Origin: Candidatus Rokuibacteriota bacterium
GTDB taxonomy: Bacteria; Methylomirabilota; Methylomirabilia; Rokubacteriales; CSP1-6
Direction of reading: 5' to 3'
Assembly (NCBI GenBank): GCA_016184305.1
Contig: JACPCX010000029.1
Span: 1-11,747, forward strand
Length of the DNA stretch: 11,747 bases
A program made the position numbers and the translations under genes. This document shows, one piece after another, positions 1,823 to 11,747 of this stretch. How positions within the stretch are numbered: position 1 is the stretch's first letter; each line of letters opens with the position of its first letter. The notes under the pieces are model-generated. The model was not told the origin of the DNA, made no database searches, and saw only the letters and a list, made by a program, of their open reading frames with translations.

Positions 1823-2287
1823 TCACCGTGCCTTGCGCTGGAGCTGGTACCCCGCCTCCGTCCAGGCGGCCATCCCCCCGTCGAGGTTCCAGACATCCGT
1901 GTAGCCGAGCTTGACCAGCGTGCGCGCGGCGATGTCGCTCATCGGGCCGCTCAGGCAGTACACGACCAGCCGCGCGCTCCTGTCGGCCGGCAGCTTGCGG
2001 GCGTTCACCTCCACCTGATCGAAGGGGATGAACAGGTCCGTTCGGCCAATCTCGCCCGCATAGGGGATGTGAACATTGATGAGCGGGAAGCTCTTGGGCT
2101 CGAGCAGCCTGGCGAGCGCGGCCGGGCTCACGTTGGTGTAGCTCCGGCCGGCCCCGACGGACACCTTCCGGCCTCCGGGATCCCGCGCATCGGCCCCGAC
2201 CGCCACTCCCGTGCCGAGCAGGGTCACGATGGTCATGCCGAGAGCCAGCCGCACGAAGTACCGGCCCTCCCAGCCTCTTCCCAGCAT
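1823..2287 (-). CDS. Single-domain rhodanese-like sulfurtransferase with N-terminal signal/TM segment
   Basis: AGAGGAAGG SD then GTG-ATG (2290/2287); 154 aa. Contains LINVHIPYAGEIGRTDLFIPFD, the active-site loop VVYCLSGPMS, and the C-terminal rhodanese signature LGYTDVWNLDGGMAAW. The ORF-track extension to 2860 overlaps the cytochrome c gene and is rejected. Confidence 0.9.
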   Translation of the reverse strand: MLGRGWEGRYFVRLALGMTIVTLLGTGVAVGADARDPGGRKVSVGAGRSYTNVSPAALARLLEPKSFPLINVHIPYAGEIGRTDLFIPFDQVEVNARKLPADRSARLVVYCLSGPMSDIAARTLVKLGYTDVWNLDGGMAAWTEAGYQLQRKAR

Positions 2288-2408
2288 CACGCCTTCCTCT
2301 CTGTCACGGGTTGACCATCCCCTTCGATGAGGACATCTTACCTCCCGCCATCCCGGCCCGCGTTGGCCGTACCGCCTGGGCGAGCCACGATGAACGCGGC
2401 CCTGCCTG

Positions 2409-2444
2409 CCACTCCACGACGATCTTGCCGCGAAACATCCCCAT
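2409..2444 (-). pseudogene. Possible remnant of the C-terminus of a cupredoxin-like domain
   Basis: Reads MGMFRGKIVVE-W, resembling the final strand of Cupredoxin_1/CupA-type domains (F.CGMGM.RG.I.VE-stop). The upstream Cys is missing, and TGG stands where a stop codon would be expected. Confidence 0.4.
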
Positions 2445-2451
2445 GACCGGC

Positions 2452-3111
2452 TCATCTTCCCTGCCGCTTCGGAGGCCGGACCGCCGACCGGATGTAGGTG
2501 ATCACGTCGACCATCTCGTTCTCCTGGAAGGTGGGCCACTCCAGCCCCAGCTCCCTCATCTTTTGCTCCATGTTCACCGCGTGGGTCCACATGACCTCGG
2601 CCCACAGGATGGGAGAGGCATACTCGCTGAACCGCGACAGCGAAGGCCCGATCCCGGGCCGATCTCCCGCCACCCGATGGCACGTCGCGCACCCCTTGCT
2701 GGCGAACAGCCGCTCGCCGCGCCTTGCGCTGCCGGGCTGGTCGAGGAAGTGAAGGGAATAGAGGTAGGTCAAGAGATCCAGCATCTCGGGTTCTGTCAGG
2801 GGCTGGGGAGCCAGCCCCTTGGACTCCCGGAGCTGGCGCATCTGGGGAGCGTGGTTCCACATCACGCCCGCCATCTGGGTCACCGTCTTGTGGCGAACCG
2901 GCGGCCGGCCCAGGTCGGGCGCCAGGCCCCCTCCCACCCCGTTGATCGCGTGGCAGATGGCGCAGCCGTGCTCGGCATAGACCTTCCGTCCTTTCTGCGG
3001 GTCCCCCCAGAGAGCGTAGGTTTCCTGGCCCCAGGCCCCGCCGGCCAGGAGCGTGATCCCGACAAGTCCGATCGTGAGAATCACGCGGTCCGTCCTCATG
3101 GCTGTCCTCAT
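2452..3111 (-). CDS. Periplasmic diheme c-type cytochrome with two tandem class I-like repeats
   Basis: Start at 3111 (ATGA overlap with the cytochrome b stop) or 3099. Signal peptide ending AWG-Q. Hemes CAICH and CATCH, each followed by MW(N/T)HA..M and EM.D..TY. The ORF-track start at 3231 lies inside the cytochrome b gene. Confidence 0.9.
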   Translation of the reverse strand: MRTAMRTDRVILTIGLVGITLLAGGAWGQETYALWGDPQKGRKVYAEHGCAICHAINGVGGGLAPDLGRPPVRHKTVTQMAGVMWNHAPQMRQLRESKGLAPQPLTEPEMLDLLTYLYSLHFLDQPGSARRGERLFASKGCATCHRVAGDRPGIGPSLSRFSEYASPILWAEVMWTHAVNMEQKMRELGLEWPTFQENEMVDVITYIRSAVRPPKRQGR

Positions 3112-4478
3112 TTCAGGGAGGAGAGGTAGCCGACCAAGGCGCTCAGATCCTCCTCTCGCAGATCCTTGGAGTCGGGCATGGCCGAGCCAGCCTTCACCGC
3201 TTCGGGATCTCTGACGAAACGCCCCAGCCATGCGGCGTCCCGGAGGCTTCCAACGCTAGACAGCTCCGGCCCCGACGCGCCGCCTTGGCCGGCGACCGTG
3301 TGACAGGCCCCGCATCCCTGGGCCTCGAAGACTTCGCGTCCCTTCTGGAGCTCGGGGGAAAGGATGGCGCCCGCGACCGGAGCACGCCCGGGCGGGGCCG
3401 GGGCCGTCGCGCCCTTGTAGGTCAGGAACAGGACGCCCCCGAGCACGGCGGTTGCCGCGAGCGATGCCACGGGGCGCCGGAGCGGGCTCCGCGCCGGCCC
3501 TCGGTCCAGGAACGGGAGCAGGAGCAGCGCGAGGAAGCCCAGAACGGGGATCCAGAAGGCGGGGAGCACGGTCCAGCGTCCGGGAAAAACCCAGAGCAGC
3601 TCGAAGAGGAAGTAGAAGTACCACTCCGGACGGGGAACGTAGGTGGTCGTCGTGGCATCGGCGATCTCTTCCAGCGGCGCCCCGTATCTCAAGGCCAGCC
3701 ACGAAGCGAACAGGAGAAGCGCCAGCGCCACCACGCTATCCCGGGTCAGGTGCTCGAGGAAGCTGGCCCCCTCGGCCTTGGATTCCTCGTAGCGGGCCCG
3801 GTACTCCTCCGGGCGGATCACGGCCAGGCGCCCGACAGGCGACGGAGCGATGCCCTGTCGGATAACCATGAAGAGGTGGACGGCCACCAGGAGCCAGAGG
3901 AAGGCCGGCAGAAACAGGACGTGAAAGGCGAAGAAACGCCCGAGGGTCCTGATTCCCACCTCGGGGCCGCCCCTGAGCAGCCGGGCGGCCACATCGCCCA
4001 CTCCGGGCGCCCACTCGGCGATGTGCGTCCCCACCACCGTGGCCCAGTAGGCCTTCTGGTCCCAGGGAAGGAGGTAGCCGGTGAAACCGAAGGCGAAGAT
4101 GATTCCGAGCAGCAGCACCCCGACCACCCACGACGTCTCCCGCGGGTACTTGTAGGCGCCCATGAAGAAGACCCGGACCAGGTGCAGGACCGCGAAGATC
4201 ACCACGAGGCTCGCGCTCCAGCGGTGGAGCCCCCGCACGTAGGCGCCGAAGGGGACCTGCTCGGTGATGTACTGGACGCTCCCGTACGCGTGCTCGACGG
4301 AGGGAACGTAGTAGAAGGCCAGGAAGATGCCCGTCACGGTCTGCACGAGCAGCAGAAAGAGCGTGGCGCTCCCCAGGGTGTGAGGCCATCCGACGGCCCT
4401 CGGGATGCGCCGGTAGAAGAACCCCGCCGCGAGCGACCGGGTACCCAGCCGGTCGTCGAGCCATGCGCCGAGACTCAC
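3108..4478 (-). CDS. qcrB: Cytochrome b of a Rieske/cytochrome b complex (b6-like domain plus subunit IV) fused to a C-terminal monoheme cytochrome c
   Basis: GTG start overlaps the Rieske stop (GTGA). Heme b His pairs RGLHRW...VLHLVR and AFHVL...AVHLF; GYLLPWDQKAYWATVVG; Qo motif RPEWYF; LLPFLDR; C-terminal GCGACH...GPELSSVG...SAMP. Confidence 0.95.
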   Translation of the reverse strand: MSLGAWLDDRLGTRSLAAGFFYRRIPRAVGWPHTLGSATLFLLLVQTVTGIFLAFYYVPSVEHAYGSVQYITEQVPFGAYVRGLHRWSASLVVIFAVLHLVRVFFMGAYKYPRETSWVVGVLLLGIIFAFGFTGYLLPWDQKAYWATVVGTHIAEWAPGVGDVAARLLRGGPEVGIRTLGRFFAFHVLFLPAFLWLLVAVHLFMVIRQGIAPSPVGRLAVIRPEEYRARYEESKAEGASFLEHLTRDSVVALALLLFASWLALRYGAPLEEIADATTTTYVPRPEWYFYFLFELLWVFPGRWTVLPAFWIPVLGFLALLLLPFLDRGPARSPLRRPVASLAATAVLGGVLFLTYKGATAPAPPGRAPVAGAILSPELQKGREVFEAQGCGACHTVAGQGGASGPELSSVGSLRDAAWLGRFVRDPEAVKAGSAMPDSKDLREEDLSALVGYLSSLK

Positions 4479-5014
4479 GAGTGGTACCGCCCCACACGCT
4501 CGAGCCGCTCGTTCACGCTATAGATCTCGCCGGCGTAGAGCACCCCCTTCTCCACCTTCATCTCGTGACGGTCCAGCGGGCGCGGAGGCGGCCCGGCGAG
4601 CACGCGCCCGCTCCGATCGAACACCCCGCCGTGGCATGGGCTGAAGAAGCGCTGCGCGGCGGGATTCCAGTTGACGGGGCAGCCGACGTGGGTGCAGTGG
4701 TTGTGGAACACCTCGAATGTGCCGTCGGCCTTCCGGGACACGAAGGCTCCCATCCTCGGCGCCTCCTCCGGCCACACCGGGCGCCGGAGCGGCATGAGCG
4801 CGACGAACCTGATCTCGCCGACCTTGAAGCCTTCCACCGGTCCCGCTTCGGCCCAGGCGAACTCCCGGCTCCTCAGCGCCGGAAGCCCGAAGAAGCCTCC
4901 CAGGGGGATACCGAGAATCCCCCCGATGGCCCCCGAGATGGTGCCAAGGAGGACCACCGTGAACCGCCGGCGGGATCGAGGCAATGACGCCTGGTGATGT
5001 GGCTCGCTCGACAT
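4475..5014 (-). CDS. qcrA: Rieske [2Fe-2S] subunit of a quinol:cytochrome c oxidoreductase, with atypical box 2 (SPCHGG)
   Basis: GGAGG SD; Tat motif SRRRFT followed by a TM helix; box 1 CTHVGC; box 2 FFSPCHGGVF; C-terminal G.VLAGPPPRPL. Confidence 0.93.
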   Translation of the reverse strand: MSSEPHHQASLPRSRRRFTVVLLGTISGAIGGILGIPLGGFFGLPALRSREFAWAEAGPVEGFKVGEIRFVALMPLRRPVWPEEAPRMGAFVSRKADGTFEVFHNHCTHVGCPVNWNPAAQRFFSPCHGGVFDRSGRVLAGPPPRPLDRHEMKVEKGVLYAGEIYSVNERLERVGRYHS

Positions 5015-5175: not shown

Positions 5176-5484
5176 TCATCGCTCTGGTGCCTCCGGGAGC
5201 TCGCCGAGCCGAACCTTCACGGCGAGCTCCGTCCCGCCGCGACGAACCTTCAGCGCCGCGTCGCTTCCGGGAGGCGCGTTCGCCGTCAGCCGCCGAAGCT
5301 CGTCGGCGCGCCGGAGCGGCTTTCCCTGGAAGGCCACGATCACGTCCCCCGGCCATATGCCGGAGCGGGCCGCGAGAGCGAGGCTGACCAGGGGCGTTAC
5401 TGCCGCCACGACCTCGCCTATCTCCACTTCCCGCCGCCGGCGCGCCCGCGCGGGGCTTGCCCTGACACCGGCGCCCGCGCTCAT
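5176..5484 (-). pseudogene. Orphan HtrA/DegQ-type PDZ domain (probable gene remnant, possibly translated)
   Basis: VVAAVTP...AARSGIWPGDVIVAFQGKPLRRADELRRLTANAPPGSDAALKVRRGGTELAVKVRLGELP matches the HtrA PDZ C-terminal pattern. No carboxylate-binding LGI/GLGF loop and no signal peptide. ATG at 5484 overlaps the permease stop (ATGA). Confidence 0.75.
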
Positions 5485-6599
5485 CCGAGCTGCCGCCCGA
5501 ACCTCCACAGGCCCAGCCCGAGAATCGCCAGCCCGAGGCCCGCCATGGCCAGCGCCTGCGGCCAGAGCACGTCCATCCCGACGCCCTTCATGAAGATCCC
5601 GAGGCCGATCTCCATGTAGTACCGCAGCGGGCTCAGGACCGACAGGAGCTGGATGGGCCCGGGCATGCTCTCCACCGGGACGATGACACCGGAGATCACC
5701 ATGACCGGGAAGATGATGAAGAAGCCCAGCAGGAGGGCCTGCTGGAGGTTGCCGGCCACGGTCCCGACCAGGAGGCCGAGCCCCAGGCTGCTGAAGAGGA
5801 AGAGGGCGGACAGCGAGAAGAAGAGCGGCAGGCTGCCACGGATCGGGACCGCGAACCACCAGGGGACCCAGAGCGCGAGGGCCAGCGAGGCCAGGCTCAC
5901 CACGAAGGTCGGGATCACCTTGGCCAGCATGAGCTGCCACGACGCGAAGGGCATCACCAGCAGCTGCTCGATCGTGCCCGCTTCCTTCTCCCAGGCCAGC
6001 CCCGCCGCCGGGAGGATGACGGCGATCATCATCACCGCCAGCGTGAGCATCGAGACGACCTCGAAGTCCACGCTCCGCAGCGCGGGATTGTACCAGGCGC
6101 GGCGCTCGTTGCGAACAGCCGGCGCCACGCTGGCCCCCGGTCCTGCGAGCCTCCGCATCTCCACCTCGCCCGAGTACTGGCGCACGATCCTGGTGGCGTA
6201 TCCCAGCGCGATCAGCGCCGAGTTGGAGTTCGATCCGTCCAGGAGCAGCTGCACCGACGCGGGGCGCCGCTGCTCGAGCTGGCGGGAGAAGTCCGGCGGG
6301 ATCACCAGGCCCACCGTCGCGCGCCCGGACTCGAGGAGGTCATCGAGCGCCGCGGCGCTCCGCGGGTGGTAGCGGACGTCGAAGTACTCCGTCGGTTCGA
6401 AGCGGGCGACGAGCTCGCGGCTGGCAGGCCGCCCGTCCAGGTCCTGCACCGCCATCGCGATATGGGTCACATCGTACGTGATCGCGTAGGCGCAGATCCC
6501 GATCTCCACGGAGATCGTCCAGATCACGAGCACGATGAGCGGCTTGCGCCGGAAGAACTGGATGAACTCCTTCCTGACCAGCGCGGCCAGCGGCCCCAT
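5481..6599 (-). CDS. ABC-2 type exporter permease (YbhR-like)
   Basis: LVRKEFIQFFR start, periplasmic domain, AWYNPAL, WEKEAGTIEQLLVMP, SGVIVPVESMP..IQLLSVLSPLRYY, six predicted TM segments. Confidence 0.95.
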   Translation of the reverse strand: MGPLAALVRKEFIQFFRRKPLIVLVIWTISVEIGICAYAITYDVTHIAMAVQDLDGRPASRELVARFEPTEYFDVRYHPRSAAALDDLLESGRATVGLVIPPDFSRQLEQRRPASVQLLLDGSNSNSALIALGYATRIVRQYSGEVEMRRLAGPGASVAPAVRNERRAWYNPALRSVDFEVVSMLTLAVMMIAVILPAAGLAWEKEAGTIEQLLVMPFASWQLMLAKVIPTFVVSLASLALALWVPWWFAVPIRGSLPLFFSLSALFLFSSLGLGLLVGTVAGNLQQALLLGFFIIFPVMVISGVIVPVESMPGPIQLLSVLSPLRYYMEIGLGIFMKGVGMDVLWPQALAMAGLGLAILGLGLWRFGRQLG

Positions 6600-6602
6600 G
6601 GC

Positions 6603-7745
6603 TCACCCGATCTTCTTCCGGAAGAGGAGCGAGGCGGCCGCCAGGAGCGCCGCCCCGTACGCGAGAAGGATGGCGGCCTCCGGCCACAGGCGCCCGAGCC
6701 CGACCCCCTTGAGGGAGATCCCGCGGGCGATCTCCAGGAAGTAGGGAGCCGGGAAGAGATGCGCGTACCACTGGAAGGCCGCCGGCATGCTCGCGATCGG
6801 GAAGAGGAAGCCGGAGAAGAGGAATGCCGGCATCAGCGTGAGCACGATCGAGAGCAGCAGCGCCACCACCTGGGTGCGGGTCACGGTGGAGATCAGGAGG
6901 CCGATCCCCACCGTGCACAGGACGTAGACGAGGGAGAGGCCAAGGAGCAGGGCGAGGCTGCCTCTGACAGGCGCGCCGAACCAGAGGCGGCCGACGACGA
7001 GCAGCAGCAGCATCTCGAGGAACGCGATGCCGGCATAGGGCAGGAGCTTCCCAGCGAGGAACTCCCAGGGACGGACCGGCGAGACATAGATCTGGAGCAC
7101 CGACCCCCGCTCGCGCTCCCGCACCACGGCCAGCGCCGTCAGCAGCGGCGGGAAGGCCATGAGGATCACCGCGAACAGGCCCGGGACCACGAAGTGCTCG
7201 CTCCGCAGTCCCGGGTTGTACCGGACCCGGGGCTCGAGCCGGATTGCGGAGGCCCCCTCGCGGGTCCCCCCCGCCTGGACAGCCAGCCGGCGCTCCTGGA
7301 CGCGGCGCGCATAGGCCTCGGTGATGGCATCGACGTAGTTCAGCGCGATGATCGCCGTGTTGGCGAACGAGCCGTCCAGCAGCGTCTGCACCTGCGCGGA
7401 CAGCCCCTGCCCCAGATTCCGAGCGAAGCCGGCCGGGATCACCAGCGCCACCCGCACGGCTCCCTGGTCGAGGAGGCGCTCGACCTCGCCCGGGCTCCGG
7501 ACGACCCGGTGGAGCCGGAAGTAGCCCGACTGCAGGAAGCTCGCCGCGAACTCGCGGCTCTCGGGGCTGCCGTCCTCGTCCAGCACCGCGAGCCGGACCG
7601 CCCGGACGTCCAGCGTGATGGCGTAGGCGAAGAGGAACATCATGAGGACCGGCAACGCGATGGCGATGCCGAGAGTGATCGGGTCCCGCAGGATCTCGCG
7701 CGTCTCCTTCCTGGCCACCGCGAGGAGGCGCCGCAGGCTAGCCAC
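6603..7745 (-). CDS. ABC-2 type exporter permease (YbhS-like)
   Basis: VARKETREILRDP, RYNPGLRS..FVVPGL, VRERERGSVLQIYVSP, LFSGFLFPIASMP. GTG start overlaps the ATPase stop. Confidence 0.95.
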   Translation of the reverse strand: MASLRRLLAVARKETREILRDPITLGIAIALPVLMMFLFAYAITLDVRAVRLAVLDEDGSPESREFAASFLQSGYFRLHRVVRSPGEVERLLDQGAVRVALVIPAGFARNLGQGLSAQVQTLLDGSFANTAIIALNYVDAITEAYARRVQERRLAVQAGGTREGASAIRLEPRVRYNPGLRSEHFVVPGLFAVILMAFPPLLTALAVVRERERGSVLQIYVSPVRPWEFLAGKLLPYAGIAFLEMLLLLVVGRLWFGAPVRGSLALLLGLSLVYVLCTVGIGLLISTVTRTQVVALLLSIVLTLMPAFLFSGFLFPIASMPAAFQWYAHLFPAPYFLEIARGISLKGVGLGRLWPEAAILLAYGAALLAAASLLFRKKIG

Positions 7746-9477
7746 CGGCCTCCCTCCGCCCCTGCTCTTCCATGTCGATGAAGATGACGAAGAGATCCTC
7801 CAGCGAGAGCGGGACGGGGCGCAGGCCCTCGAGCGACAGGCCTGCGCCCGCCAGGGTGTCGCGGATCACGGGCTCCGCCGCGGCGGGATCCTCCACGAGC
7901 ACGTGCACCCGGCTCCCGAACAGGCTCGTCCGGCCCAGCCCGGGTACGGCTCTGAGCGCGCGAAGCGCCGTGAACGGCACCCGGCACGCCAGCTCCAGCA
8001 TGACGCCCGCCCGCATCCCCTCCTTCAGGGCCCGTGGATCTCCCTCCGCGATCAGCCGCCCCTGGTACATGAGCCCGAGCCGGTGGCAGCGCTCGGCCTC
8101 GTCGAGATAGTGGGTGGTCACGAACACCGTGGTGCCCGCCGCGGAGAGCGTGCCGATGAGATCCCAGAACTCCCGCCGCGCCATCGGATCCACCCCGGCC
8201 GTCGGCTCGTCGAGGAACAGGACCTCGGGCTCGTGGAGGATCGCGCACCCGAGGGCCAGGCGCTGCTTCACCCCGCCGGACACCTCGCGGGCGAGGCGGC
8301 GCTCCTGTCCGCTCAGCCCGCCCATCTCCAGCGCCCACGCCGAGCGCTCGGCCAGCCGCCGGCGCGAGAGCCCGTAGCCCCGCCCGAAGAAGGCCAGGTT
8401 CTCCTCGACCGTCAGGTCGTCGTAGAGCGAGAAGCGCTGAGACATGTAGCCGATCCGGGCCCTGATCCCCCGGGCATCCCGGGAGGTGTCGTAGCCCAGC
8501 ACCTCGCCGAGCCCGGCCGAGGGGGGGAGGACGCCGCAGAGCATCCGGATGGTAGTGGTCTTCCCTGACCCGTTGGGCCCGAGGAAGCCGAATACCTCGC
8601 CGCGGTGTACCGCGAGGGAGACATGGTCCACGGCGACGAAGCCTCCGAAGGCTTTCGTGAGGCGGTCGAGCCTGACCACGACTGCGTCCCGCGCCATGGC
8701 GGCCTGGACGCGCGGCGCCGGCACCGCGCCCCGGCCCATCGCCGCCCGATCCCTGCCCGCCACGAGCGACACGAAGGCATCCTCCATCGATGCGCCGGGC
8801 CCCGCCTCGGCCTTGAGGGCCCCGGGCGGACCCGAGCGGATCACGCGTCCCCGGTGCATGAGGGCCACGCGGTGGCATTGCTCGGCCTCGTCCATGTAGG
8901 GCGTGGCGACCATGAGCGTGAGGCCGCGCTCGACGAGATCATGCAGGATCTCCCAGAGCTCCCGGCGGGACACCGGGTCCACGCCAGCGGTGGGCTCGTC
9001 GAGCAGGAGAATCTCCGGCTCGTGGATCAGGGCGGAGCAGAGGTGGAGCTTCTTCTGCATCCCTCCCGAGAGGTGTCCGGCCCTTCTCGCGCGGAAGGGC
9101 GCGAGGCGGCTCCATGCCAGCAGCCTCTCCTTCCGGCTGCGCCGGAGCGCGCCCGGCACGCCGTGCAGGTCCGCGAAGAAGTCCAGGTTCTCCTCGACGG
9201 TGAGAGTCCCGTAGAGCGTGAACTCCTGGGAAACGTAGCCGATCCTCTGCCGGAGCGTGGTGGCGTCGCGCGTAACATCCAGCCCGAGCACCGTCGCACG
9301 CCCCGCCGTCGGATCCAGGAGGCCGGCCAGGAGCCGGAGCAGCGTGGTCTTCCCGGCGCCGTTGGGACCGAGCAGCCCGAAGATCTCCCCCGGCGCCACG
9401 TCCAGTTCCACGCCCTCGACAGCCGGCGTGGCGCCGAACCGTCTGCTCAGGCGCTCGACCTCGATCGCCGCGGGCAT
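7738..9477 (-). CDS. ABC transporter ATP-binding protein with two fused NBDs (YbhF-like)
   Basis: Two Walker A motifs (GPNGAGKT, GPNGSGKT), two signatures (LSGGM, VSGGV), two Walker B/D-loops (DEPTAGVDP). Start overlaps the HlyD stop (TGATG). Confidence 0.96.
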   Translation of the reverse strand: MPAAIEVERLSRRFGATPAVEGVELDVAPGEIFGLLGPNGAGKTTLLRLLAGLLDPTAGRATVLGLDVTRDATTLRQRIGYVSQEFTLYGTLTVEENLDFFADLHGVPGALRRSRKERLLAWSRLAPFRARRAGHLSGGMQKKLHLCSALIHEPEILLLDEPTAGVDPVSRRELWEILHDLVERGLTLMVATPYMDEAEQCHRVALMHRGRVIRSGPPGALKAEAGPGASMEDAFVSLVAGRDRAAMGRGAVPAPRVQAAMARDAVVVRLDRLTKAFGGFVAVDHVSLAVHRGEVFGFLGPNGSGKTTTIRMLCGVLPPSAGLGEVLGYDTSRDARGIRARIGYMSQRFSLYDDLTVEENLAFFGRGYGLSRRRLAERSAWALEMGGLSGQERRLAREVSGGVKQRLALGCAILHEPEVLFLDEPTAGVDPMARREFWDLIGTLSAAGTTVFVTTHYLDEAERCHRLGLMYQGRLIAEGDPRALKEGMRAGVMLELACRVPFTALRALRAVPGLGRTSLFGSRVHVLVEDPAAAEPVIRDTLAGAGLSLEGLRPVPLSLEDLFVIFIDMEEQGRREAGG

Positions 9478-10655
9478 CAGTCAGGTCGCCCGTCAGCCCA
9501 CGCCGCGCCGGCCATCCACCGGATCCGGCCGTCCACCGCCATCCCCGGCTTGAGCACCCCCGCCGGATTCTCCAGGGCGAGCTTGGCGGCGAAGACCAGC
9601 TTCGCGCGCTCATCCTTCATGTGGACGTCCCGCGGCGTGAACTCCGCCTGCTGCGAGATCTCGACCACCGCGCCCTTGAAGTGCCGCCCCGGGAAGGCGT
9701 CGGTGTAGACGCGGGCGGCATCGCCGAGCTTCACTTTGCCGAGGTCGCGCTCGGCGACATAGACCTTGGCGTGGAGCCTCGACAGATCGACGAGAGTGAC
9801 CAGGGGCGTTCCCGCCGCCACGACCTCGCCCGCCTCCACCATCCTGGTGAGGACGGTGCCGGAGAAGGGCGCGGGCACGCGCGTATCGTCCAGGTTGGCG
9901 CGGGCGAGCTTCACACCGGCGGCTGCGGACTGGATCCGCGCCTCCGCCGTCGCCACCGCCGCGCTGGCCTCGCGGACGCGCTCGGCCGCCGTGCGGCCCT
10001 CGCTCCGGCGCAGCTCCACCGCGATCCGGGAGGCGCGGGCCAGCTCGAGCGCGGCCTGCGCCTGGGCGACCTGCTCCCGGGCGGCTGCCACGCGGGCGCG
10101 GGCGACCGCGTCGGCGGCCCGCGCCTCATCCAACTGCTGGGCGGCAATCAGATCCCTGGCGAAGAGCTCGCGGGAGCGCCCGTGATCCCGGGCCGCCTTG
10201 TCCTGATCGGCCTCCGCTTGCGTGAGCTGCGCCCGTATGGCTCCAAGCCCGGCCTCGGCCTCTTCGGTCCGGGCCGCCGACTCACGCTCAGCCAGCGTCA
10301 CGGCCGCCTCGGCGCTCTCGGCCTGCCGCTGCGCCAAGACGACCCCGGCGCGCGCCTCGCCCAGCTGCTCGCGGGCGGTGTGCAGCGCGTGCTCGGTCTG
10401 CTCGAGCTGGGCGCGTGCCTGCTCGGAGCTGAGCTCGGCGATAGGCTGGCCGGCCGCCACCCTGTCCCCCTCCCGGACCGCCAGTCGGACGATCTTTCCC
10501 CCGACCCTGGCGCCGATCGCCGCCTGGTCTCCCTCGATCCGCCCGCTGATCTCGAGAACGCCGGGGGGAGGCAGCGCGGGCCGCCAGAGCATCCAGGCTC
10601 CGACGGTGAGCGCCCCCGCCAGCGCACCCGCGAGAACCATCTTCCATCTGGACAT
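9477..10655 (-). CDS. HlyD-family efflux membrane fusion (periplasmic adaptor) protein (YbhG-like)
   Basis: GAGGT SD; N-terminal TM helix; ISGRIEG, VREGDRVAAGQ lipoyl-like halves; long Ala/Gln coiled coil; APFSGTV, AEFTPRDV, LKPGMAVDG. Confidence 0.95.
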   Translation of the reverse strand: MSRWKMVLAGALAGALTVGAWMLWRPALPPPGVLEISGRIEGDQAAIGARVGGKIVRLAVREGDRVAAGQPIAELSSEQARAQLEQTEHALHTAREQLGEARAGVVLAQRQAESAEAAVTLAERESAARTEEAEAGLGAIRAQLTQAEADQDKAARDHGRSRELFARDLIAAQQLDEARAADAVARARVAAAREQVAQAQAALELARASRIAVELRRSEGRTAAERVREASAAVATAEARIQSAAAGVKLARANLDDTRVPAPFSGTVLTRMVEAGEVVAAGTPLVTLVDLSRLHAKVYVAERDLGKVKLGDAARVYTDAFPGRHFKGAVVEISQQAEFTPRDVHMKDERAKLVFAAKLALENPAGVLKPGMAVDGRIRWMAGAAWADGRPD

Positions 10656-10702
10656 CGGCTACCTCGCTTCGGCTCCCCGCCCCGTTGCGTCGGCCTGGCG
10701 AC

Positions 10703-10722
10703 GTGGCGGCTCGCGCCGCCAC
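10703..10722 (-). other. Perfect 8-bp hairpin with GNRA tetraloop in the 5' leader of the ABC operon
   Basis: Minus strand GUGGCGGC-GCGA-GCCGCCAC; extendable with bulges (CGG/UCG, GGC-CUGG/CCAGGCC). No U-tract follows. Confidence 0.5.
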
Positions 10723-10793
10723 CCGATCCAGCGCCACTTCCAGCACCACGACATTGACGATCTGGCTCACCGGGCACTCCGTGGAGGGGGTGG

Positions 10794-10809
10794 TGCAAGC
10801 GGCCTGCCA
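10794..10809 (-). promoter_or_regulatory. Sigma-54 (RpoN) -24/-12 promoter upstream of the ABC exporter operon
   Basis: Minus strand TGGCAGGCCGCTTGCA versus consensus TGGCACG-N4-TTGCW: one mismatch and exact GG-N10-GC spacing. It is intergenic, correctly oriented, and adjacent to a sigma-54 activator gene. Confidence 0.85.
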
Positions 10810-10819
10810 GCCGCTCGGA

Positions 10820-10834
10820 GGACAGAACGTGTCC
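10820..10834. promoter_or_regulatory. Palindrome GGACA-N5-TGTCC just upstream of the sigma-54 promoter, candidate regulator site
   Basis: ggaca gaacg tgtcc: perfect 5-bp arms, 10 bp upstream of the -24 element. Confidence 0.35.
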
Positions 10835-10922
10835 GTCCAACGGCCGCATCCAGCCGCGGCCCCGTCACGCCGGGCGGTGGCCAGCGGGGCCGGCTCTCTG
10901 CTGCCTGGCGGGATGCCGCCTA

Positions 10923-11747
10923 TCAGGGACGCCGCTGTGCGTCGCCTTCGTAGACCTTCAGCTTTCGCCACAAGGTGTGCAGGCTGATCCCGAGCGCCTT
11001 GGCGGTGCGGGTGCGGCTGCCGTGATGCCGCTCGAGCGCCGCGAGGAGCGGCCCCGTGAGCCCGCCCAGCGCCGGAGATGCCCCGCCCTCGCGCAGGGCC
11101 GGTGGCAGGTCGGCGACCGTGATGCGGTCGCGCGTGGCCAGGACCACGGCGCGCTCGAGCGCGTTCTGGAGCTCGCGGACATTGCCCGGCCAGGCGTAGC
11201 CCGTCAGGAGATCGAGGGCCTCCGCCGAGATGGCGCGGATCTCCTTTCCCTGCGCCGCGGCATGCCGCTCGAGGAAGAGCCGGGCGAGCGAGACGATGTC
11301 CTCCCGCCGATCCCGGAGCGGAGGGATCACGATGTTGATGACGTTGAGCCGGTAGTAGAGGTCATGCCGGAACTCGCCGCCGGCCACCGCCTGCTCCAGG
11401 TTCCGGTTGGTCGCGGCAAGGACCCGGACGTCCACCCGCACCGAGGTCGTCGCGCCGACACGCCGGATCTCGCGCTCCTGGAGCGCCCGGAGCAGCTTGA
11501 CCTGGATGGCCGGAGGCGCCTCGGCGATCTCGTCGAGGAGAAGGGTCCCGCGGCCGGCCTCCTCGAAGAGCCCCTTCTTGTCCGCGACGGCGCCCGTGAA
11601 GGATCCCCGCAGGTGCCCGAACAGCTCGCTCTCCAGGAGCGGCTCCGGAACCGCCCCGCAGTTGATCGCGACGAACGGCCCCTTCGCCCGGCGGCTCCGC
11701 TCGTGGATGTACCGGGCCACCAGCTCCTTGCCCGTCCCGCTCTCCCC
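10923..11747 (-). CDS. Sigma-54-dependent transcriptional activator (NtrC/AtoC-type AAA+ domain with Fis-type HTH), 5' end outside the window
   Basis: The frame is open from the window edge: GESGTGKE (Walker A), ESELFGH..GSFTGA, LLLDEI (Walker B), [19 protein letters not shown], and HTH AKALGIS..TLWRKLK. Ends with TGA TAG. Confidence 0.97.

What the first reader, a model, noticed from the sequence alone, without database searches (positions are those of the whole stretch)
4631..4705. Rieske protein with Ser at a canonical iron-ligating Cys (SPCH instead of CPCH)
Seen in sequence: the motif reads HNH-CTHVGC-PVNWNPAAQRFF-SPCH-GGVF, and the codon at 4642..4640 is AGC, one base from TGC. Established: in the Rieske motif C-x-H-x15..17-C-x-x-H, the first Cys of CPCH ligates iron (bovine Cys158), while the second forms the disulfide with the last Cys of box 1. 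Spacing here is exactly 15, so a ligand position is replaced, not a disulfide position. The rest of the gene and its partners look intact (Tat signal, GPPPRPL, PEWY, all four heme b histidines). Inference: either a new cluster coordination (Ser, the neighbouring PCH Cys, or one of the two extra His in HNH), a repurposed non-catalytic subunit, early decay, or a base-call error.
Basis: partly seen in the sequence, partly recalled or inferred. Interest (0 to 1): 0.78.

Follow-up and report, generated by a model that had tools for sequence, protein, structure and literature searches.

The report
Rieske protein with serine ligand swap
A respiratory iron-sulfur (Rieske) protein carries serine where one of its four cluster-holding residues is normally cysteine, and this is a real, inherited and recurrent natural variant that nobody seems to have characterised, not a sequencing error or a dying gene.

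Summary
Window 4475..5014 (-) encodes a 179-aa Tat-type Rieske subunit whose box II reads SPCH, with Ser125 = AGC at 4642..4640. Contigs from three other studies carry the same codon.

The swap is fixed in a clade: 110 of the 120 nearest homologues have SPCH and 10 have CPCH. A second, unrelated Chloroflexota clade has it in 117 of 120. Smaller lineages have it too, with AGC, TCC and TCG codons.

In 389 unfiltered relatives this position is only Ser (236) or Cys (153). The other ligands and the disulfide pair are invariant, except in one fragment, one decayed copy and one His-to-Asp variant. Trees need at least 12-19 Ser/Cys switches, with no recurrent compensating change.

The partner genes are intact. 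Genomes with this operon usually also hold a canonical CACH Rieske/cytochrome b operon.

Best reading: a working low-potential Rieske centre with Ser in place of the Cys on the inner iron. Ligand swapping to a neighbouring Cys is not excluded. The scan met the same variant earlier on other DNA (e1-5314405). No paper describing it was found.

The parts
4475..5014 (-). Rieske iron-sulfur subunit gene, 179 aa, with an N-terminal Tat motif and a membrane helix
   Evidence: ORF. Pfam PF00355 36.1 bits against a cut-off of 20.3. AF2 model with mean pLDDT 84.9 and helix 13-47. Foldseek best matches are b6f, Kuenenia and Chlorobaculum Rieske proteins.
4961..4972 (-). Twin-arginine motif RRRF (residues 15-18)
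   Evidence: Read from the sequence. R15 and R16 are invariant in the 30-sequence alignment.
4679..4696 (-). Box I, CTHVGC: ligand Cys107, ligand His109, disulfide Cys112
   Evidence: Among 389 unfiltered relatives, C107 is Cys in 388 of 388 aligned, H109 is His in 386 plus 2 Asp, and C112 is Cys in 387 plus 1 Ala.
4631..4642 (-). Box II, SPCH: Ser125 (AGC, 4642..4640) at the ligand-Cys position, disulfide Cys127, ligand His128
   Evidence: Aligned to CPCH of solved Rieske proteins. The same codon stands in contigs of three other studies. The position is Ser in 236 and Cys in 153 of 389 relatives, with no other residue.
4574..4594 (-). GPPPRPL 'Pro loop' (residues 141-147)
   Evidence: Invariant in alignment A1.
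3108..4478 (-). Unsplit cytochrome b with a fused C-terminal mono-haem cytochrome c, 456 aa. Its GTG start overlaps the Rieske stop (GTGA).
   Evidence: Pfam PF00033 164 bits, PF00032 31 bits, PF00034 40.4 bits. The N-terminal half aligns gaplessly with cytochrome b6 1vf5_A, with His85, 99, 186 and 201 kept and the haem-cn Cys position occupied by Thr. PEWY is at 3618..3629 and CGACH at 3300..3314.
2452..3231 (-). Di-haem cytochrome c (CAICH, CATCH). The true start is probably an internal Met close to the cytochrome b stop.
   Evidence: Pfam PF00034, 2 stretches. Motifs. The same gene follows cytochrome b in L005, L007 and L086, and lies upstream in L006.
1823..2860 (-). ORF whose C-terminal part is a single rhodanese domain. 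The real gene is probably much shorter and starts at an internal signal-peptide-like Met.
   Evidence: Pfam PF00581 39 bits at residues 278-335. A rhodanese homologue also lies beside the SPCH Rieske gene in L088 and in L005.

Best explanation
The gene encodes the working iron-sulfur subunit of an accessory, low-potential (probably menaquinol-oxidising) Rieske/cytochrome b-c/di-haem-c complex. Its [2Fe-2S] centre is most likely retained, but with one Cys, one Ser and two His as ligands. Ser125 O-gamma would take the place of the Cys thiolate on the inner, non-His iron, and the Cys112-Cys127 disulfide would be kept.

Shown here: the codon is real; Ser is fixed in whole clades; Ser and Cys, and only these two, interchange repeatedly at this site; the rest of the site and the partner genes are conserved.

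Inferred, not shown: that a cluster is bound, that Ser is the fourth ligand, and that the substrate is menaquinol.

My odds: about 0.85 that this is a functional, selected variant that still binds a cluster, and about 0.5 that Ser itself is the ligand.
For: (1) The codon is real: AGC appears in contigs of three other studies.

(2) It is fixed in clades. SPCH occurs in 110 of the 120 nearest homologues at 50-98% identity. All 9 nearest hits (E of 3e-35 or better; one, L109, has no parsed motif) in the 251 genomes of the same phylum carry it where readable, in 7 genomes, found by six-frame search without a word index. The top 4 of 150 HMMER representatives carry it. A second clade has it in 117 of 120.

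(3) Ser is encoded by AGC (window, L005-L007, L009, L086-L091, L108, L021, L026, L065, L068), TCC (L008, L015) and TCG (L035). AGY and TCN are each one step from TGY and two steps from each other.

(4) Only this site toggles. In 389 unfiltered relatives it is Ser 236 / Cys 153 and nothing else. C107, C112, C127, H109 and H128 are invariant apart from a fragment (P0125), one decayed copy (P0133) and one His-to-Asp variant (P0263). Restriction to Ser or Cys is what a metal-ligand position would show. A position freed by ligand swapping or by cluster loss should also accept Ala, Gly or Thr.

(5) The disulfide partner Cys112 is kept in all 130 Ser forms of the 341-row set and in 120 of 120 in the second clade. 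This argues that Cys127 is still engaged in the disulfide.

(6) The fewest Ser/Cys changes are 18 on a 341-row FastTree (200 shuffles: mean 104, minimum 85). On a 93-row IQ-TREE the figure is 19, with at least 12 forced by starred branches and none of 200 bootstrap trees showing a single origin. In 15 Ser/Cys sister pairs no second position changes consistently, so the two residues behave as near-equivalents in one scaffold.

(7) The rest of the machine is intact: Tat motif, Pro loop, four haem-b His, PEWY, a fused haem-c CGACH and a di-haem c. Rieske-then-cytochrome b-c synteny holds in SPCH loci L005-L009 and L086-L091. Against the same-genus locus L086 there are 8 synonymous and 2 non-synonymous codon differences in Rieske, and 15 and 11 in cytochrome b.

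(9) G130 and F132 sit at the Ser/Tyr positions that raise the Rieske potential when present (PMC3509893 and bioRxiv 10.1101/2025.06.25.661457, passages). An MqnA/MqnD-family gene lies in the same genome.
Against: There is no biochemical, spectroscopic or expression evidence of any kind, and no RNA run was listed.

From my recollection of classical bc1 mutagenesis (not checked here), Cys-to-Ser at Rieske ligands abolished the cluster.

Conservation of Cys112 could also be explained by the frequent reversions to Cys forms.

The protein searches collect candidates by shared 5-residue words, which favours Ser forms when the query is a Ser form. The locus scan used the pattern FF[SC]PCHGG, which admits only Ser or Cys. 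Frequencies from these calls are therefore not unbiased; the 150 HMMER representatives and the phylum search are.

Every genome checked also has another cytochrome b gene, and 5 of the 6 have a canonical Rieske gene beside one. The organism need not depend on this complex.
Confidence: 0.5

Rival explanations
1. Ligand swap. The cluster is retained but its fourth ligand is a neighbouring cysteine (Cys127 of SPCH, or Cys112 of box I). The disulfide is given up and Ser125 is a passive small residue.
For: Three Cys remain close to the site. Ligand rearrangement after Cys-to-Ser changes is known in a clostridial [2Fe-2S] ferredoxin (recalled, not checked here). Cluster insertion precedes Tat export, when all three Cys are still reduced (established knowledge of Tat substrates).
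Against: Both Cys112 and Cys127 stay invariant in every Ser form examined: 130 of 130, and 236 of 236 apart from the fragment P0125 and the decayed copy P0133. One of the two would be dispensable after a swap. The freed position should then tolerate Ala, Gly or Thr, yet only Ser or Cys occurs in 389 relatives. Ser and Cys forms differ by as few as 4 residues in the cluster domain (P0089 against P0084), so the same loops would have to support two different ligations.
Confidence: 0.2
2. The cluster is held by three protein ligands (Cys107, His109, His128) plus water or hydroxide, with Ser125 only hydrogen-bonding.
For: This reading is compatible with the strict Ser/Cys restriction if a polar group is needed at this spot. 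Incomplete protein ligation of Fe-S clusters is known in other families (established knowledge).
Against: The data give no positive evidence for it. Thr or Asn would be expected to serve as hydrogen-bonding residues but never occur in 389 relatives.
Confidence: 0.1
3. The subunit has lost its cluster and serves a structural or regulatory role in a complex that no longer runs a Q cycle.
For: Other notes of this scan describe cluster-less Rieske subunits in other lineages (unchecked AI notes). The genomes that hold this operon also hold another cytochrome b gene, which would relax selection.
Against: The other three ligands, the disulfide pair, the Pro loop and the Tat motif are invariant across two large Ser clades. 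Tat export is the route for cofactor-loaded proteins. PEWY and all four haem-b His are kept in the partner. The one copy that does look cluster-less (P0133: CPD, Ala at C112, SPCR) shows what loss looks like, and it is a single case among 389.
Confidence: 0.08
4. A sequencing or assembly error, or a recent inactivating mutation in this one genome.
For: AGC is one base from TGC.
Against: The same codon stands in contigs of three other studies and in a same-genus genome (L086). Ser is present in 110 of 120 and 117 of 120 homologues of two clades, encoded by three different codons.
Confidence: 0.01

Closest known systems
Rieske iron-sulfur subunits of low-potential Rieske/cytochrome b complexes. 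Nearest solved structures: Chlorobaculum tepidum soluble domain 8hn2, Thermus thermophilus 1nyk/3fou, cyanobacterial and plant b6f PetC (2zt9_D, 7qrm_D), Kuenenia stuttgartiensis 9rk3/9rk4.
   Same: They share the fold (Foldseek E 1e-7), box I CTHxGC, a 15-residue spacing, the xPCHG box II with the disulfide Cys, the Pro loop (GPPPRPL here, GPPPRPV in Thermus), the Tat-type N-terminus and linkage to cytochrome b. The Thermus box II, CPCHGGVYD, is nearly identical to SPCHGGVFD.
   Different: The first Cys of box II, a cluster ligand in all solved members, is Ser. Gly and Phe replace the Ser/Tyr pair of high-potential members (for the role of that pair). The partner cytochrome b is unsplit, lacks the haem-cn Cys and carries a fused C-terminal cytochrome c.
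CPCH-type relatives of the same subfamily, automatically annotated 'menaquinol-cytochrome c reductase iron-sulfur subunit, bacillus type' or 'ubiquinol-cytochrome c reductase iron-sulfur subunit', in Bacillota, Actinomycetota, Chloroflexota, Elusimicrobiota and other MAGs.
   Same: They are 33-79% identical and have the same operon of Rieske followed by a cytochrome b-c fusion (L013, L014, L018, L030). Some sit inside the Ser clade itself (P0003, P0007, P0013 and others).
   Different: They keep the canonical Cys. In sister pairs little else differs in the cluster domain.
Engineered Cys-to-Ser variants of [2Fe-2S] ferredoxins with serinate ligation.
   Same: They have one O-donor Ser in place of a Cys thiolate on a [2Fe-2S] cluster. 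Such clusters are stable enough to have catalogued Raman frequencies (PMC6006211, passages).
   Different: Those are laboratory mutants of all-Cys ferredoxins. Here the swap is natural, fixed in clades and lies in a 2His Rieske site. I know of no natural Rieske example, and none was found in the searches.

Membership tests
Rieske [2Fe-2S] protein (PF00355), iron-sulfur subunit of Rieske/cytochrome b complexes | Rieske fold | tested here: met
   Pfam 36.1 bits against a cut-off of 20.3. AF2 model pLDDT 84.9. Foldseek matches to b6f, Kuenenia and Chlorobaculum Rieske proteins at E 1e-7 to 1e-6.
Rieske [2Fe-2S] protein (PF00355), iron-sulfur subunit of Rieske/cytochrome b complexes | Box I C-x-H (ligand Cys and ligand His) followed by the disulfide Cys (CTHxGC) | tested here: met
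   CTHVGC at residues 107-112.
Rieske [2Fe-2S] protein (PF00355), iron-sulfur subunit of Rieske/cytochrome b complexes | Box II C-x-x-H, with the first Cys as the fourth cluster ligand (2Cys/2His set) | tested here: not met
   The motif is SPCH. Ser125 aligns with the ligand Cys of 8hn2, 3fou and 1nyk. By descent and fold the protein belongs to the family, but it does not satisfy the canonical ligand definition.
Rieske [2Fe-2S] protein (PF00355), iron-sulfur subunit of Rieske/cytochrome b complexes | Spacing of 15-17 residues between the two boxes | tested here: met
   15 residues here and in 120 of 120 close homologues.
Rieske [2Fe-2S] protein (PF00355), iron-sulfur subunit of Rieske/cytochrome b complexes | Disulfide-forming Cys pair of respiratory-type Rieske proteins | tested here: met
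   Cys112 and Cys127 are present and invariant in relatives. Whether the disulfide actually forms is not testable with these tools.
Rieske [2Fe-2S] protein (PF00355), iron-sulfur subunit of Rieske/cytochrome b complexes | Binds a [2Fe-2S] cluster with a Rieske-type EPR signal | not testable with these tools
   This needs expression, EPR and Fe/S analysis.
Rieske/cytochrome b quinol:cytochrome c oxidoreductase (bc-type complex) | Adjacent cytochrome b with four haem-ligating His and a Qo-site PEWY motif | tested here: met
   Start and stop codons overlap with the Rieske gene. His85, 99, 186 and 201 align with the cytochrome b6 ligands. PEWY is at residue 284.
Cytochrome b6f-type ('green clade') complexes | Split cytochrome b6/subunit IV and a CxGG Cys for haem cn | tested here: not met
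   Cytochrome b is a single 456-aa protein. Thr stands at the position of the b6 Cys ('WPHTLGSATL' against 'FYCLGG'). The motif definition comes from PMC5600118 passages.
Low-potential (menaquinol-type) Rieske centres | Absence of the Ser and Tyr hydrogen-bond donors after box II (CPCHGS-x-Y in high-potential forms) | tested here: met
   SPCHGGVF has Gly130 and Phe132. These residues are found in all Ser forms compared. The role of the pair comes from PMC3509893 and bioRxiv 10.1101/2025.06.25.661457 passages. The actual potential was not measured.

The most novel reading that the evidence does not exclude
These proteins carry a natural [2Fe-2S] Rieske centre with Cys1-Ser1-His2 coordination. 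That would be a serinate-ligated respiratory Rieske cluster that arose many times, is fixed in at least two large bacterial clades, and interconverts freely with the all-canonical form. It would be the first natural oxygen-ligated Rieske centre. It would also offer ready-made natural Ser/Cys pairs that differ by a handful of residues, useful for studying how the inner-iron ligand tunes potential, the pKa of the His ligands and oxidative stability.
Probability: 0.5. Interest if true: 0.8.

Novelty: new variant of a known kind. Interest (0 to 1): 0.62.

Why it matters
The 2Cys/2His ligand set is treated as the defining and invariant feature of Rieske centres. From recollection, laboratory Cys-to-Ser changes at these ligands in bc1 complexes destroyed the cluster.

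Here Ser at one ligand position is fixed in two large clades, appears in several smaller lineages, and switches back and forth with Cys without visible compensation. Either nature uses an oxygen-ligated Rieske cluster, or the site re-ligates in a way not seen before. Each outcome bears on how the reduction potential and stability of this key Q-cycle cofactor are set.

It also matters for annotation. These proteins are automatically named ubiquinol- or menaquinol-cytochrome c reductase iron-sulfur subunits with no flag that a ligand is missing.

The natural Ser/Cys sister pairs (for example P0089 and P0084, or P0096 and P0098) make the question directly testable by expression and spectroscopy.

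Tried and rejected
A compensating residue. I looked for a position that changes together with Ser/Cys in 15 sister pairs and for residues shared by both Ser clades but rare in Cys forms. Nothing was specific. T108, G130 and F132 are universal in Ser forms but are also the majority state in Cys forms. T108S accompanies S125C in only 3 pairs.

The HNH histidines as substitute ligands. Rejected: H104 is variable, and H106 is independent of the Ser/Cys state and absent from the second clade.

Another genetic code or recoding of AGC. Not pursued, because Ser is also written TCC and TCG.

RNA evidence. No RNA holder was listed for the stretch, so nothing can be said about expression.

Metal geometry from the AF2 model. 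The tool returns no coordinates, so Ser-to-cluster distances could not be measured. Complex prediction was not used, because it scores only protein partners and would not report ligand coordination.

AU test of a single origin. Not run, because the starred-branch minimum of 12 and 0 of 200 bootstrap trees already answer the question.

Literature. Full-text searches were 'SPCH'+Rieske, Rieske+'serine ligand'+2Fe-2S, Rieske/cytb phylogeny terms, Rieske+Rokubacteria, Rieske+serinate, Rieske+'cysteine to serine', Methylomirabilis+Rieske+bc1 and atypical/non-canonical/unusual Rieske. None gave a paper describing a natural Ser at this ligand. Ten Brink et al. 2013 (BBA 1827:1392) is not held. Lebrun 2006, Schneider and Schmidt 2005 and the classical mutagenesis papers were not seen either, so a mention there cannot be excluded.

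Full report
WHAT IS THERE

Window 4475..5014 (- strand) is a 179-aa ORF. Pfam assigns it to the Rieske [2Fe-2S] domain at 36.1 bits against a cut-off of 20.3. Its N-terminus carries RSRRRFT, followed by a helix modelled at residues 13-47.

The cluster region reads FHNH-CTHVGC-PVNWNPAAQRFF-SPCH-GGVFD, and GPPPRPL lies further on. Both alignments put Ser125 on the first Cys of CPCH. In the canonical site, as I recall it from the bovine structure, that Cys ligates iron and the second Cys makes the disulfide with the last Cys of box I. The Kuenenia Rieske preprint restates the two-His, two-Cys plus disulfide arrangement (10.1101/2025.06.25.661457, passages).

An AF2 model built from a 30-sequence alignment has mean pLDDT 84.9. 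Its best Foldseek matches are b6f PetC (7qrm_D, 2zt9_D), Kuenenia Rieske domains (9rk4, 9rk3) and 8hn2.

IS IT AN ERROR?

No. Public-run contigs from three studies other than the likely source (X5 soil, X7 and X12 groundwater) each span the whole gene with 5-7 differences and none at 4640-4642. The nearest is a synonymous change at 4637. These are assembled contigs, not raw reads. A same-genus genome (G221, locus L086) has the same AGC.

HOW WIDE IS THE SWAP?

Of the 120 best homologues of the window protein (50-98% identity, out of 1278 with E up to 0.001), 110 read SPCH and 10 read CPCH, all with spacing 15. This search collects candidates by shared 5-residue words, which favours Ser forms, so I checked with searches free of that bias.

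- The HMMER scan of 1.84 billion cluster representatives returned SPCH in its four best hits. Overall it gave 8 SPCH and 139 CxCH among 150, plus a fragment with SPCH (P0125), a decayed copy (P0133) and a CTD...CPCH variant (P0263).
- A six-frame search of the 251 genomes of the window's phylum found nine hits with E of 3e-35 or better, in 7 genomes. Eight are readable, and all read SPCH with AGC; one, L109, gave no parsed motif. The more distant hits (33-38% identity) are a CPCH type. The Ser-type operon is therefore patchy: 7 of 251 genomes, and 2 of 4 in the window's own genus.
- In the species-representative genome collection, SPCH also turned up in Actinomycetota (L015), Gemmatimonadota (L009) and several Chloroflexota lineages (L021, L026, L035, L065, L068). 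That makes 11 Ser and 62 Cys among the 73 of 80 loci whose motif could be parsed. One of the two patterns used for that scan admits only Ser or Cys.
- Searching with the Chloroflexota Ser form P0146 showed a second large clade: 117 SPCH and 3 CPCH among its 120 best homologues.

Ser is written AGC in most loci, TCC in L008 (inside the main clade) and in L015, and TCG in L035.

ONLY THIS POSITION MOVES, AND ONLY BETWEEN SER AND CYS

I aligned all 389 proteins returned by the three searches, without filtering.

| Position | Residues found |
|---|---|
| 125 | Ser 236, Cys 153, nothing else |
| Cys107 | Cys 388 of 388 aligned |
| His109 | His 386, Asp 2 |
| Cys112 | Cys 387, Ala 1 |
| Cys127 | Cys 389 of 389 |
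| His128 | His 388, Arg 1 |

The exceptions are the fragment P0125, the single decayed copy P0133 (CPD..A...SPCR) and P0263. The ratio 236:153 reflects my choice of two Ser-form queries and is not a frequency. In the filtered 341-row set, the box-I disulfide Cys, which the filter did not require, is present in 341 of 341, including all 130 Ser forms.

HOW OFTEN DID IT SWITCH?

On a FastTree of 341 rows (170 columns, trait column removed) the fewest Ser/Cys changes are 18. Label shuffles gave a mean of 104 and a minimum of 85 over 200 trials.

On an IQ-TREE of 93 rows the count is 19. I chose these rows to include every Cys form inside the main Ser clade and every Ser form outside it, so the set is enriched for transitions. 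At least 12 changes are forced by starred branches, and none of 200 bootstrap trees has a single origin.

The main Ser clade (128 leaves in the FastTree, support 89) holds about ten scattered Cys forms. Outside it there are at least six further Ser lineages.

In 15 Ser/Cys sister pairs no other cluster-domain position changes consistently. P0089 and P0084 differ at four positions between residues 95 and 150. No residue is specific to Ser forms in both big clades. T108, G130 and F132 are universal in Ser forms but are also the majority among Cys forms.

THE REST OF THE MACHINE

The Rieske stop overlaps the GTG start of a 456-aa cytochrome b (3108..4478, -). Its N-terminal half aligns gaplessly with cytochrome b6 (1vf5_A), with His85, 99, 186 and 201 at the haem-ligand positions and Thr at the haem-cn Cys position. 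It has PEWY at residue 284 and a fused C-terminal cytochrome c domain with CGACH.

A di-haem cytochrome c follows (CAICH, CATCH), and then an ORF ending in a rhodanese domain. Rieske followed by the cytochrome b-c fusion is conserved in the SPCH loci L005-L009 and L086-L091. The same arrangement is found in the CPCH relatives L013, L014, L018 and L030.

Against L086 there are 8 synonymous and 2 non-synonymous codon differences in Rieske, and 15 and 11 in cytochrome b.

The window's genome (88.8% complete) also has a second operon with a canonical Rieske protein (CTHLSC...CACH) next to another cytochrome b and a multihaem cytochrome, plus a third cytochrome b gene. Four of five other genomes with the SPCH operon have the same CACH-type pair. 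The Ser-type complex is thus an additional Rieske/cytochrome b complex, not the only one.

An MqnA/MqnD-family gene in the genome and the Gly/Phe at the two potential-raising positions after box II (for their role) point to a low-potential, menaquinol-type centre. That is inference.

READING

Sequencing error and recent decay are excluded. A cluster-less subunit fits poorly, because three ligands, the disulfide pair, the Pro loop and the Tat motif are all held constant over two large clades, whereas the one decayed copy has lost several of them.

The strict Ser-or-Cys restriction, the use of both Ser codon families, the repeated switching in near-identical backgrounds and the retention of both disulfide Cys are best explained if position 125 still contacts the inner iron and Ser O-gamma can do what Cys S-gamma does. 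[quoted passage not shown] In rubredoxins such a swap lowers the potential by 100-200 mV (same source). In a Rieske site the Ser would sit on the iron that stays ferric, so I expect a smaller effect, but that is inference.

A swap to Cys127 or Cys112, or a solvent ligand, cannot be excluded without spectroscopy or a structure. My odds are:

- Cluster retained and variant functional: about 0.85.
- Ser as ligand: about 0.5.
- Cys swap: about 0.2.
- Solvent ligand: about 0.1.
- Cluster-less: about 0.08.

Why Ser is favoured in some lineages is open. Possibilities are potential tuning, or avoiding mis-paired disulfides or thiol damage in a site with three neighbouring Cys. These are speculation.

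COMPARISON AND NOVELTY

By fold, descent, operon and every other motif this is a Rieske iron-sulfur subunit of a bc-type complex. It is closest to the low-potential 'bacillus-type' or green-sulfur-type proteins. It fails the one defining feature of the canonical ligand set, so I class it as a new variant of a known kind.

Public annotations call these proteins ordinary ubiquinol- or menaquinol-cytochrome c reductase subunits. Eight full-text searches found no description of a natural Ser at this ligand. Key subscription papers were not available.

My own searches agree with that.

Noticed in passing
L061 (about 3300-3400) and protein P0263: A Chloracidobacterium-labelled Rieske relative reads NCTDLSCPV...FFCPCHGG. 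The first His ligand of box I is Asp while box II is canonical. This is a different non-canonical ligand set, seen in two sequences.
   Followed up: no
protein P0133 (127 aa): This is a relative of the Ser clade with box I CPDVGAP and box II SPCRGS: His to Asp, disulfide Cys to Ala, His to Arg. It looks like a truly decayed or cluster-less copy and served as a contrast.
   Followed up: partly
L065 2068-5981 (also L068): The second Ser clade (Chloroflexota...Y[IV]SPCHDGHF) is not next to a recognisable cytochrome b. Its neighbours are a CsoR-like metal-sensing repressor, a small membrane protein with a CCAHH stretch, a lipoprotein-like ORF and a redoxin/AhpC-family protein. Its partner and role are unknown.
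   Followed up: partly
L005 3537-4907: This is the 98%-identical locus in a MAG labelled Deltaproteobacteria. It has an in-frame stop at codon 354 of cytochrome b and Pro144Gln in the Rieske Pro loop (GPPQRPL). This could be assembly error or a damaged strain.
   Followed up: no
window 1823-2860 (-); L088 2605-2949; L005 6306-6536: A rhodanese-domain ORF lies just downstream of the di-haem cytochrome c. Homologues lie beside the SPCH Rieske gene in another genome. This hints at a recurrent link between this complex and a sulfurtransferase.
   Followed up: no
G047: L087 and L108 (contig C1): One genome of the phylum carries two SPCH Rieske genes (64% and 50% identical to the window's). The second (DIRCTHGGCPVRW...SPCH) has no cytochrome b hit within its 3.5-kb locus.
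   Followed up: no
G000:C123:24523-25077: The window's genome holds a third cytochrome b family gene in a 656-aa open frame, at 72 bits to PF00033. No Rieske hit was reported on that contig.
   Followed up: no
proteins P0013, P0081, P0099: Three of the ten Cys forms inside the main Ser clade read CSH instead of CTH in box I, while every Ser form examined reads CTH. This may be a weak coupling between the two positions or chance.
   Followed up: partly
window 5481-11747 (-): Upstream of the respiratory operon lie a small PDZ-domain ORF, two ABC-2 permeases, a fused double ABC ATPase (579 aa), a HlyD-family adaptor and the C-terminal part of a sigma-54 activator. A Band 7/SPFH gene fragment lies at 1-534.
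   Followed up: no
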